NCBI RefSeq assembly: GCF_988242995.1
Contig: NZ_OZ547043.1
Strand: one strand, 5' to 3'
Length of the DNA stretch: 64,000 bases
The position numbers and the translations under genes are program-made. The number at the start of each line of letters is the position of its first letter. Position 1 is the first letter of the stretch. Below are positions 10,489 to 18,614 of the stretch, piece by piece. The notes below the pieces were generated by a model. The model searched no databases and had not been told where the DNA came from. It saw only the letters and a list, made by a program, of their open reading frames with translations.

Positions 10489-10884
10489 ATGTGTGAAGGA
10501 TATGTTGAAAAACCACTCTACTTGTTAATCGCCGAATGGATGATGGCTGAAAATCGGTGGGTGATAGCAAGAGAGATCTCTATTCATTTCGATATTGAAC
10601 ACAGCAAGGCGGTTAATACCCTGACTTATATTCTGTCGGAAGTCACAGAAATAAGCTGCGAAGTTAAGATGATCCCTAATAAGCTGGAAGGGCGGGGATG
10701 CCAGTGTCAGCGACTGGTTAAAGTGGTCGATATCGATGAGCAAATTTACGCGCGCCTGCGCAATAACAGTCGGGAAAAATTAGTCGGCGTAAGAAAGACG
10801 CCGCGTATTCCTGCCGTTCCGCTCACGGAACTTAACCGCGAGCAGAAGTGGCAGATGATGTTGTCAAAGAGTATGCGTCGTTAA
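10489..10884 (+). CDS. caiF: Carnitine-operon transcriptional activator CaiF, 131 aa
   Basis: ORF track starts at 10384, but the recognised CaiF sequence MCEGYVEKPLYLLIAEWMM begins at the internal ATG 10489. Confidence 0.85.
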   Translation: MCEGYVEKPLYLLIAEWMMAENRWVIAREISIHFDIEHSKAVNTLTYILSEVTEISCEVKMIPNKLEGRGCQCQRLVKVVDIDEQIYARLRNNSREKLVGVRKTPRIPAVPLTELNREQKWQMMLSKSMRR

Positions 10885-16627: not shown

Positions 16628-18145
<1,518 letters not shown>

Positions 18146-18278
18146 TTAATTCCACTGTGAAAACGAATATTTATTTTGCGTTCCCGTTTGTTTTATTTTT
18201 GTTAACATTTAATATAATTATTATTAACCTCGTGGACGCGTTAATGGCTAACTCATAATGGGTATTCAATTGGCTGCG

Positions 18279-18300
18279 TTCTGTGATGTTAGTCACGGTT
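18279..18300. promoter_or_regulatory. CRP-binding site in the divergent caiT/fixA control region
   Basis: tgtga-tgttag-tcacg matches the CRP consensus TGTGA-N6-TCACA; cai and fix are known to be CRP dependent. Confidence 0.6.
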
Positions 18301-18392
18301 TTTTATCGGGTAAAAACAGGGCGTCTTTGTGTAAATATTAATTGTTTATCAATGTGATAAGTTTGATTGTGAGTAAAAAAATAGCATCTGAC

Positions 18393-18427
18393 TTTCAATA
18401 TTGGTGATCCATAAAGCAATATTGAAA
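18393..18427. promoter_or_regulatory. CaiF activator site 1 (inverted 11-bp half-sites, 13-bp spacer)
   Basis: tttcaatattg-N13-caatattgaaa perfect inverted repeat; matches the published CaiF site architecture as I recall it. Confidence 0.7.
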
Positions 18428-18449
18428 ATTTCTTTTTGCTACGCCATGT

Positions 18450-18484
18450 TTTCAATATTGGTGAGGGACTTAACAATATTGAAA
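18450..18484. promoter_or_regulatory. CaiF activator site 2 (inverted 11-bp half-sites, 13-bp spacer)
   Basis: Second tttcaatattg-N13-caatattgaaa copy 57 bp downstream of site 1. Confidence 0.7.
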
Positions 18485-18614
18485 GTTGGATTTATCTGCG
18501 TGTGACATTTTCAATATTGGTGATTAAAGTTTTATTTCCAAATTAAAGGGCGTGATATCTGTAATTAACACCACCGATATGAACGACGTTTCCTTCATGA
18601 TTTCTGGAGATGCA

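What the first reader, a model, noticed from the sequence alone, without database searches (positions are those of the whole stretch)
18380..18530. Two perfect CaiF-type palindromes plus an orphan third half-site forming a roughly 57-bp tandem unit in the cai/fix control region
The caiT-fixA intergenic region contains tttcaatattg-N13-caatattgaaa twice (18393..18427 and 18450..18484) with identical 11-bp half-sites and 13-bp spacers beginning gtga..., consistent with the CaiF activator sites described for this divergent promoter. A third left half-site (tttcaatattggtga, 18509..18523) follows at the same 57-59 bp phasing but lacks a partner and sits just after a tgtgacat CRP-like half-site. The phasing suggests a partially triplicated operator.
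Basis: partly seen in the sequence, partly recalled or inferred. Interest (0 to 1): 0.3.

Follow-up and report, generated by a model that had tools for sequence, protein, structure and literature searches.

The report
Conserved third CaiF box at fixA promoter
The two palindromes are the already published binding sites of the carnitine regulator CaiF, and the partnerless third half-site beside them is the most widely conserved piece of this control region, so it is probably a working promoter-proximal CaiF site.

Summary
TTTCAATATTG occurs exactly five times in 64 kb, all within 127 bp of the caiT-fixA intergenic region: two palindromes with 13-bp spacers and one unpaired copy, phased 57 and 59 bp apart. 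The palindromes are the published CaiF operators F1 and F2, identical in K-12. Their GTGA-initiated spacers are CRP-like cores, which I recall being published as CRP sites 2 and 3.

The new result concerns the orphan, here called F3. TTCAATATTGGTGA is exact in 48 of 53 Enterobacterales cai-fix regions. It lies 59-61 bp from F2 wherever F2 exists, and it is the only CaiF-type site in Edwardsiella, Hafnia, Serratia, Leminorella, Limnobaculum and Budvicia. No genus has a right-half partner, so the orphan state is conserved, not decayed. Outside the motifs the three units share only background similarity.

F3 lies in the fix core-promoter region. It sits between a -35-like GTGACA and a -10-like TAAAGT, and 47 bp upstream of a positionally conserved extended -10-like element. 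The most likely reading is a functional single CaiF box; the exact geometry is unresolved because no start-site data were accessible. The system is known and the F3 conservation is a modest addition.

The parts
10489..10884 (+). caiF, the gene for the regulator that binds the boxes (131 aa)
   Evidence: ORF. Pfam CaiF_GrlA PF07180 at 28.5 bits against a cut-off of 25. Only PDB relative is GrlA, 4kt5_C.
16628..18142 (-). caiT, first gene of caiTABCDE, transcribed leftwards
   Evidence: ORF. 100% protein identity to E. albertii CaiT and 98% to an E. coli representative. Annotated as caiT in K-12.
18281..18296 (.). CRP core of the cai promoter, TGTGATGTTAGTCACG (9 of 10 to TGTGA-N6-TCACA). K-12 has the perfect TGTGATTGGTATCACA.
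   Evidence: Sequence. From memory of the Buchet 1998 abstract this is 'CRP motif 1 at -41.5 of cai', which puts cai +1 near 18247.
18393..18427 (.). F1, a CaiF palindrome: TTTCAATATTG-N13-CAATATTGAAA. Its spacer holds the CRP-like core GGTGA-TCCATA-AAGCA (18403-18418, centre 18410.5, 6 of 10).
   Evidence: I6. Published sequence. Half-sites 96-99% conserved in 26 class A sequences, against 67% for the rest of the spacer.
18450..18484 (.). F2, a CaiF palindrome. Its spacer holds the CRP-like core GGTGA-GGGACT-TAACA (18460-18475, centre 18467.5, 8 of 10).
   Evidence: Present in all 42 species that have any palindrome, always 59-61 bp upstream of F3.
18502..18507 (+). GTGACA, a -35-like hexamer (5 of 6).
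   Evidence: Promoter scan, GTGACA-17-TAAAGT. 98% conserved in class A and absent in other lineages.
18509..18537 (+). F3 block: TTTCAATATTG (18509-18519, the orphan box), GTGA (18520-18523), N4-5, then GTTTTATTT (18529-18537). It has no inverted partner.
   Evidence: The 14-mer is exact in 48 of 53 Enterobacterales regions. Columns are 90-100% identical in 20 genera. Mean identity 0.99 in class A, the joint-highest of any segment (F1-R is also 0.99). Partner position scores 3-6 of 11.
18525..18530 (+). TAAAGT, a -10-like hexamer 17 bp downstream of GTGACA. It predicts +1 near 18537.
   Evidence: The T-A-n-n-G-T pattern is kept in class A. It agrees with the published fix +1 as I reconstruct it from memory: CRP sites at -69.5 and -126.5 coincide with the F2 and F1 centres only if +1 is 18537.
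18553..18567 (+). TGATATCTG, an extended -10-like element (hexamer 18556-18561), followed by TAATTA (18562-18567). This is an alternative, positionally conserved promoter candidate with +1 near 18568-18575.
   Evidence: A -10-like element lies at offset 47 (14 of 21 sequences) or 53/54 (6 of 21) from the F3 start, covering 19 of 21. The conserved block in class D ends there.
18615..19385 (+). fixA, first gene of fixABCX

Best explanation
This is the CaiF/CRP-dependent control region of the divergent caiTABCDE and fixABCX carnitine operons. F1 and F2 are the known CaiF operators. Each is a pair of CAATATTG boxes 21 bp apart, centre to centre, flanking a CRP-like core.

The 'orphan' is a third CaiF box, F3, that has never had a partner. 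It belongs to a 29-bp block, TTTCAATATTG-GTGA-N4-GGTWTTATTT, embedded in the fix core-promoter region, and it is the most widely conserved cis-element of the whole region.

Proposed mechanism (inferred, not shown). One CaiF unit, activated by crotonobetainyl-CoA, binds the self-complementary box at F3. Acting next to or within the RNA polymerase footprint, it turns on the fix promoter. The phased upstream CaiF-CRP-CaiF assemblies F2 and F1 reinforce it and couple it to the distant cai promoter.

Relative to the published E. coli fix start site (about 18537, reconstructed from memory) the box occupies -28 to -18. That places it inside the -35/-10 spacer, the position reported for the paralogue GrlA at LEE1 P1.

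What is shown here: the existence, exactness, conservation, phasing and partnerlessness of F3, and its promoter-proximal position. What is inferred: CaiF occupancy of F3 and the sign and geometry of its action.
For: - Exact copy of a footprinted CaiF half-site, plus the same GGTGA extension as F1-L and F2-L (literature).
- Among E. coli genomes the 161-bp core is at least 95% identical in 5384 of 5390, while the whole intergenic region is only 90-95% identical in 4730. K-12 differs from the window at no box position.
- Across species the 14-mer is exact in 48 of 53 regions. F3 sits 103-109 bp from the fixA ATG in classes A-C, and F2-to-F3 spacing is 59-61 bp in 42 of 42.
- F3 is the only CaiF-type site in 10 species of 6 genera. 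At least Edwardsiella has caiF (PMC2764856).
- In Providencia the upstream right halves have degenerated while F3 stays perfect.
- Segment conservation in class A is 0.99 for F3-L against 0.55-0.68 for the linkers.
- The only sigma-70-like hit on the fix strand brackets F3.
- CaiF belongs to the CaiF/GrlA family. GrlA is reported to act through the non-dyad 18-bp spacer of LEE1 P1 (PMC4730234 citing Islam 2011). I verified that promoter sequence upstream of ler.
- From memory, the Buchet 1998 abstract reports a critical 50-bp sequence overlapping the fix start site that is needed even for cai transcription. F3 lies in such a window.
Against: - No binding data for F3 were accessible. The available literature speaks of only two CaiF sites, and the primary papers could not be read. 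A negative footprint at F3 may already be published.
- The fix start site is taken from my memory of an abstract, not from data.
- The fix spacer is an optimal 17 bp, unlike MerR- or GrlA-type promoters with 18-20 bp.
- GTGACA is absent outside class A, so the 'spacer' geometry cannot be universal. Comparative scanning favours a -10 element 47-54 bp downstream of F3.
- Entomohabitans has lost the box.
- No convincing sequence similarity between F3 and the LEE1 P1 spacer: about 6 of 12 positions, by eye.
Confidence: 0.6

Rival explanations
1. F3 acts from upstream. The conserved fix promoter is the extended -10-type element 47-54 bp downstream of F3 (window TGATATCTG at 18553-18561, +1 near 18568). 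The CaiF box is then centred near -52.5, and the adjacent GGTGA-N6-TTTTA core (centre 18526.5) is a weak CRP site at the canonical class II position of -41.5. CaiF would help CRP and RNA polymerase as MelR or MalT do. F3 is still a CaiF site, with a different geometry.
For: A -10-like element at fixed offset 47 (TGnTAnnnn, 14 of 21) or 53/54 (6 of 21) from F3, covering 19 of 21 sequences. Conserved columns RTGnTAnTT and TATnTT in all 20 genera. In class D the conserved block runs from the box to about offset 58 and then stops. The arithmetic 18568 - 18526.5 = 41.5. F1 and F2 show that CRP-like cores do accompany left-type boxes.
Against: The E. coli hexamer TATCTG lacks the -7 T and was not called by the standard scan. 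The F3 CRP core scores only 6 of 10, with a right half of 2 of 5. The published start site, as I reconstruct it, is 18537, and the recalled CRP positions (-69.5, -126.5) fit no CRP-like sequence if +1 were 18568. No transcript data were accessible.
Confidence: 0.25
2. F3 is not bound by CaiF in vivo. It is a leftover of motif duplication that is now kept for another reason, such as core-promoter or UP-like sequence, or another factor's site. Alternatively it is an operator at which CaiF sterically limits fix transcription and does not activate it.
For: Available sources mention only F1 and F2 as CaiF sites. A site at -28 to -18 is a typical repressor position. The box overlaps sigma-70-like elements. 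Identical 16-mers can be maintained or spread by recombination, as shown by the F1-L::F3 deletion in strain C6.
Against: Promoter spacers are not normally invariant across 20 genera, and the flanking -35 is not conserved while the box is. In six genera F3 is the only candidate CaiF target in a region that must respond to CaiF. The conserved sequence is exactly the CaiF half-site. The window contains no other exact copy of it.
Confidence: 0.15

Closest known systems
CaiF operators F1 and F2 of the E. coli K-12 cai-fix intergenic region (Buchet et al. 1999, Mol Microbiol 34:562; quoted in PMC12083890 and PMC3680233)
   Same: F1 and F2 in the window are the same sites: identical 11-bp half-sites, 13-bp spacing, and the same place between caiT and fixA. 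F3 has the identical left half-site and GGTGA extension.
   Different: F3 has no inverted partner in any genus. It lies in the fix core promoter and is more widely conserved than F1 or F2. I found no source that names it as a CaiF site.
   Same: The GGTGA-N6-TAACA and GGTGA-N6-AAGCA cores sit exactly at the F2 and F1 centres, 57 bp apart, as the recalled positions require. CRP binding to this region is confirmed by SELEX (PMC3105977).
   Different: The F3 core GGTGA-N6-TTTTA has a poor right half (2 of 5). As far as I recall it was not reported as a CRP site.
GrlA at the LEE1 P1 promoter of EHEC/EPEC (Islam et al. 2011, as summarised in PMC4730234 and PMC3130263)
   Same: Same protein family (PMC9979310). 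The target is reported inside the -35/-10 spacer with no dyad symmetry. F3 is a single box between GTGACA and TAAAGT.
   Different: The LEE1 spacer is 18 bp (TTGACA-TTTAATGATAATGTATTT-TACACA, verified) and the fix spacer is 17 bp. There is no clear sequence similarity. CaiF also uses upstream palindromes and CRP, whereas GrlA is controlled by GrlR.
Class II CRP-dependent extended -10 promoters such as galP1 (textbook knowledge)
   Same: Under the rival geometry, the F3 block plus the TGn element has a CRP-like core at -41.5, an extended -10 and no -35.
   Different: The CRP core is weak and is fused to a CaiF box. The start site is unverified.

Membership tests
CaiF operator (F-type site) | 11-bp half-site TTTCAATATTG | tested here: met
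   Five exact copies: F1-L, F1-R, F2-L, F2-R and F3.
CaiF operator (F-type site) | Inverted partner half-site after a 13-bp spacer | tested here: not met
   Met for F1 and F2 (I6). Not met for F3: 4 of 11 at spacer 13 in the window and 3-6 of 11 in 20 genera, against a background mean of 3.2 and a 95th percentile of 6. F3 is therefore a single box and not a canonical F-type operator.
CaiF operator (F-type site) | Located in the caiT-fixA divergent control region, with caiF in the genome | tested here: met
   caiT 16628-18142 (-), fixA from 18615 (+), caiF 10489-10884.
CaiF operator (F-type site) | Protected or shifted by purified CaiF | not testable with these tools
   Published for F1 and F2 in K-12. 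Nothing was found for F3, and the primary papers are not held.
CRP binding site (TGTGA-N6-TCACA) | Match to both pentamers at 6-bp spacing | tested here: inconclusive
Only CRP1 and F2 are convincing by sequence.
Sigma-70 promoter | -35 and -10 hexamers at 16-18 bp | tested here: met
   GTGACA-17-TAAAGT at 18502-18530 is the only plus-strand hit in the region. Such hits are no more frequent than in shuffles (2 found against 2.2 expected), so this is weak evidence on its own.
Sequence-level tandem repeat (duplicated 57-bp unit) | Similarity of the units outside the functional motifs | tested here: not met
   Outside the motifs the window units match at 11 of 31, 7 of 31 and 8 of 31 positions. 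Only the F1/F2 pair reaches 73% overall, and that is driven by the motifs (D1). Proteus units reach up to 18 of 33.
MerR/GrlA-like spacer-acting activation | Activator target between -35 and -10 | tested here: inconclusive
   Met if the promoter is GTGACA/TAAAGT with +1 at 18537 (memory). Not met under the alternative promoter.
MerR/GrlA-like spacer-acting activation | Over-long spacer (18-20 bp) that the activator compensates for | tested here: not met
   The spacer is 17 bp. LEE1 P1 has 18 bp.

The most novel reading that the evidence does not exclude
The real recognition unit of CaiF is the single self-complementary box CAATATTG with its left-type flank TTT...GGTGA, and the 35-bp palindrome is a later elaboration. 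The partnerless F3 block at the fix promoter would then be the ancestral and sufficient carnitine-response element of Enterobacterales. The palindromes F2, F1 and the Proteus extra copy would be later, recombination-prone additions, phased 57-59 bp apart, that recruit CRP and extend control to cai. CaiF would then resemble its paralogue GrlA in acting as a single unit from within the core promoter.
Probability: 0.35. Interest if true: 0.45.

Novelty: new member of a known kind. Interest (0 to 1): 0.3.

Why it matters
The cai-fix region is a textbook-level, already dissected control region, so most of this finding is confirmation. The addition is comparative. The unpaired box, absent from the two-site descriptions I could read, is the one element kept in every lineage, and in six genera it is the only CaiF-type site.

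If it is functional, three things follow:
- The minimal CaiF-responsive promoter becomes about 60-70 bp, down from the whole 290-bp region. That is useful for the carnitine and crotonobetainyl-CoA biosensors built on the fix promoter.
- It gives a simple substrate for asking how the poorly understood CaiF/GrlA family contacts DNA and RNA polymerase.
- It would explain an old deletion result, as I recall it, that sequences overlapping the fix start site are needed for cai expression.

Tried and rejected
- Primary papers. Buchet 1999 (PMID 10564497) and Buchet 1998 (PMC107209) are not held. Start-site and CRP positions therefore rest on my memory of the 1998 abstract. I checked them only for internal consistency with the sequence: the 57-bp spacing of -69.5 and -126.5 equals the F1-F2 spacing, and 289 bp between starts fits 18247 and 18537.
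- Start-site data. The Thomason 2015 DOI is not held. The Salmonella dRNA-seq paper has no supplements held.
- Literature search for a third CaiF site, SELEX or ChIP data found nothing.
- RNA element. Rfam gave only chance hairpin hits with E of 0.3 or more. The 18537-18625 leader folds no better than shuffles, z = 0.45.
- Degenerate right half at F3, tested at spacers of 11-15 bp: background level.
- Sequence-level tandem duplication: rejected for the window.
- Similarity between the LEE1 P1 spacer and F3. The LEE1 sequence was verified, but the alignment by eye gives about 6 of 12, which is not convincing.
- Frequency of the strain C6 deletion allele. The junction query is not discriminating, because BLAST joins the two pieces in normal genomes. 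All I can say is that at most 24 of 5390 genomes lack full coverage of the core.
- IHF, FNR and ArcA consensus checks by eye on F3 found no good match.

Full report
**1. Observation.**
The sequence of 18100-18800 shows TTTCAATATTG at 18393, 18450 and 18509. Its reverse complement lies at 18417 and 18474. This gives two 35-bp palindromes with 13-bp spacers (GTGATCCATAAAG and GTGAGGGACTTAA) and a third, unpaired copy followed by GTGA and preceded by tgtgacat.

A pattern search finds exactly these five exact copies in 64 kb. With one mismatch allowed there are 7 matches against 1.34 +/- 1.19 in shuffles, and none of 100 shuffles reached 7. The repeat finder reports the three 16-mers TTTCAATATTGGTGAK spaced 57 and 59 bp apart, and the two perfect inverted pairs.

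The flanking genes are caiT (16628-18142, minus strand) and fixA (ATG at 18615). caiF itself lies at 10489-10884.

I add that the core CAATATTG is its own reverse complement. Box centres inside a palindrome are 21 bp apart, which is two helical turns.

**2. What is already known.**
Two open papers quote the primary work. [quoted passage not shown] 5'-TTTCAATATTG-N13-CAATATTGAAA-3'' (PMC12083890; PMC3680233). K-12 MG1655 is identical to the window at all five boxes. F1 and F2 are therefore simply the published operators.

Other points from the accessible literature:
- CaiF shifts DNA without carnitine, and crotonobetainyl-CoA is now taken as its effector (PMC5540944; PMC12083890).
- CRP binds this region, and cai and fix use different CRP molecules (PMC3105977).

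The primary papers (Buchet 1998, 1999) are not held. From my memory of the 1998 abstract:
- The two start sites are 289 bp apart.
- CRP motif 1 is at -41.5 of cai.
- CRP sites 2 and 3 are at -69.5 and -126.5 of fix.
- A 50-bp sequence overlapping the fix start site is needed for cai transcription.

These numbers fit the sequence in only one way. The CRP1 core at 18281-18296 gives cai +1 near 18247. That gives fix +1 near 18537. Positions -69.5 and -126.5 then fall exactly on the centres of F2 (18467.5) and F1 (18410.5), where the spacers read GGTGA-N6-TAACA (8 of 10 to the CRP core) and GGTGA-N6-AAGCA (6 of 10). Each published CaiF palindrome is a CaiF box, a CRP core and a second CaiF box.

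**3. The third half-site within E. coli.**
The 161-bp core (18385-18545) is at least 95% identical in 5384 of 5390 E. coli genomes. The whole intergenic region is only 90-95% identical in 4730 genomes.

The difference comes from a hypervariable patch at 18271-18367. It has 33 differences in 97 bp against K-12, compared with 6 in the remaining 375 bp. None of the differences between the window and K-12 touches a box.

**4. The third half-site across species.**
A scan with CaiT brought in 80 loci, one genome per species. I extracted 53 Enterobacterales caiT-fixA intergenic regions.

- The 14-mer TTCAATATTGGTGA of the orphan, which I call F3, is exact in 48 of 53.
- The 11-mer has 0 mismatches in 30 regions, 1 in 20 and 2 in 3. 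Most single mismatches are at the first T.
- In Enterobacteriaceae and Morganellaceae, F3 lies 103-109 bp from the fixA ATG. The exceptions are C. sedlakii at 92 and P. heimbachae at 139.
- F3 lies 59-61 bp downstream of F2 in all 42 species that have a palindrome.

The architectures differ by lineage:

| Lineage | Sites present |
|---|---|
| Escherichia, Citrobacter, Salmonella, Phytobacter, Pseudocitrobacter, Intestinirhabdus (class A) | F1 + F2 + F3 |
| Yokenella, Atlantibacter, Pluralibacter, Trabulsiella and two unnamed genera | F2 + F3 |
| Proteus | three palindromes + F3, all at a 59-bp period |
| Providencia | degenerate right halves, perfect F3 |
| Edwardsiella, Hafnia, Serratia H1w, Leminorella, Limnobaculum, Budvicia (class D) | no palindrome, F3-type block only (two direct copies in Budvicia) |

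E. tarda is reported to have caiF (PMC2764856).

In a one-per-genus, F3-anchored alignment of 20 genera, the columns of TTCAATATTGGTGA are 90-100% identical. They are followed by a conserved GGTWTTATTT and, about 43-58 bp from the start, by RTGnTAnTT and TATnTT.

In 26 class A sequences the mean identity is 0.99 for F3-L, 0.96-0.99 for the other boxes, 0.55-0.68 for the linkers and 0.51 for the variable patch.

At the position where a partner half-site should be, F3 scores 3-6 of 11 in every genus, against a background mean of 3.2 and a 95th percentile of 6. One species, Entomohabitans teleogrylli, has lost the box.

The orphan state is itself the conserved state.

**5. Is it a triplicated tandem unit?**
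The phasing is real and conserved. Outside the motifs, however, the three window units match at only 11 of 31, 7 of 31 and 8 of 31 positions. There is no sequence-level evidence of duplication in E. coli, and only modest evidence in Proteus (up to 18 of 33).

The identical 16-mers do behave as recombination substrates. E. coli strain C6 (NZ_CP195945.1) has a 357-bp intergenic region in which F1-L is fused directly to the F3 downstream sequence. This is a precise 116-bp deletion that leaves a single F3-type site. Copy number of the phased units can thus change by unequal recombination, which fits the 1 to 4 units seen among genera. Which state is ancestral cannot be settled, but F3 is the common denominator.

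**6. Where F3 sits relative to the promoter.**
The consensus scan finds one sigma-70-like site on the fix strand, GTGACA-17-TAAAGT at 18502-18530. This predicts +1 near 18537, the same position I reconstruct from the literature.

As a CRP site its right half CAATA matches only 2 of 5. The F3 box then occupies -28 to -18, inside the spacer.

GTGACA and the T-A-n-n-G-T pattern are conserved in class A (0.98) but absent elsewhere. A comparative scan shows a different, positionally conserved candidate. It is an extended -10-like TGnTAnnnn at offset 47 from the F3 start in 14 of 21 sequences, or a TATATT-type -10 at offset 53/54 in 6 more; together these cover 19 of the 21 sequences, because Hafnia has both. 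In the window this is TGATATCTG at 18553-18561. It would give +1 near 18568, put the box near -52.5, and put the F3 GGTGA-N6-TTTTA core (centre 18526.5) at -41.5.

A third possibility is a weak promoter, TTCAAT-17-TATTTY, in which the box overlaps the -35.

I could not obtain start-site data. All three geometries place F3 within about 60 bp of the fix start. The leader shows no Rfam match and no unusual RNA structure (z = 0.45).

**7. Mechanism.**
I commit to F3 being a functional, promoter-proximal single CaiF box (confidence about 0.6).

*Shown:*
- sequence identity with footprinted half-sites;
- stronger and wider conservation than those half-sites;
- constant spacing to F2 and to fixA;
- sole presence in six genera.

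*Inferred:*
- that CaiF occupies it;
- that it activates.

Given the reconstructed E. coli +1, the box lies in the -35/-10 spacer. CaiF's only structurally characterised relative is GrlA (PDB 4kt5_C; Pfam CaiF_GrlA; PMC9979310). GrlA forms a GrlR2-GrlA heterotrimer, so it enters that complex as a single chain. It is reported to activate LEE1 P1 through the non-dyad 18-bp spacer in a MerR-like way (PMC4730234; PMC3130263). I verified the LEE1 P1 sequence TTGACA-N18-TACACA about 170 bp upstream of ler.

The parallel is positional only. The fix spacer is 17 bp and the sequences are not convincingly alike.

The main rival (0.25) keeps CaiF on F3 but moves the promoter downstream, giving a class II-like geometry with a weak CRP core. 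A second rival (0.15) is that F3 is not a CaiF target or acts negatively.

**8. Comparison and novelty.**
The system, the palindromes and, as far as I recall, the CRP cores are already known. F3 fails one defining feature of the F-type operator, the inverted partner, so it should not be filed as a third 'F site'. It is a single-box variant in a known control region.

I found no accessible source that names it. I cannot exclude that the 1999 paper mentions it. The new information is comparative: near-universal conservation (52 of 54 regions keep the box; Entomohabitans and Trabulsiella do not), the F3-only architecture, and natural copy-number change. Interest is modest at 0.3.

Noticed in passing
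window 18271-18367: A hypervariable patch between the cai CRP site and F1. It has 33 of 97 positions different from K-12, against 6 differences in the other 375 bp of the intergenic region. It changes the cai CRP core from K-12's perfect TGTGATTGGTATCACA to TGTGATGTTAGTCACG. Only 307 of 5391 E. coli genomes carry an allele at least 99% identical to the window, and every Escherichia species sampled has a different version. It looks like mosaic or recombinational replacement, or relaxed constraint, flanked by near-invariant DNA.
   Followed up: partly
L082 (E. coli strain C6, NZ_CP195945.1) 2250-2606; equivalent to window 18393-18508 deleted: A natural 116-bp deletion that fuses F1-L to the F3 downstream sequence through the identical 16-mers TTTCAATATTGGTGAT. 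It removes F1-R and all of F2 and leaves one F3-type site. Its frequency could not be measured; at most 24 of 5390 genomes lack full coverage of the core.
   Followed up: partly
L048 (Budvicia aquatica), L027-L034 and L045 (Proteus), L037 (Entomohabitans): Budvicia has two direct copies of the F3-type block 28 bp apart. Proteus species have three full palindromes plus F3 at a strict 59-bp period. Entomohabitans has lost the F3 box but keeps GGTGA...TTTTATTT.
   Followed up: partly
window 10587-10597: A one-mismatch copy of the half-site (TTTCGATATTG) lies inside the caiF coding sequence. It is probably chance, since one-mismatch hits are expected at about 1.3 per window.
   Followed up: no
L022, L043, L046-L053 (class D intergenic regions): Besides the F3 block, the only strongly conserved intergenic element is TTGATTAAGATCAC, an FNR/CRP-like dyad when read on the cai strand, followed by CATTATAA. 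This is presumably the cai promoter. In these genera F3 lies 264-349 bp upstream of the fixA ATG, which implies a long leader or an unrecognised feature.
   Followed up: no
window 16628-18142: The window's CaiT protein is 100% identical to that of the E. albertii type strain, but its intergenic DNA matches E. coli genomes (best 99.6%) and differs from the 482-bp region of E. albertii. The window is most likely E. coli.
   Followed up: partly
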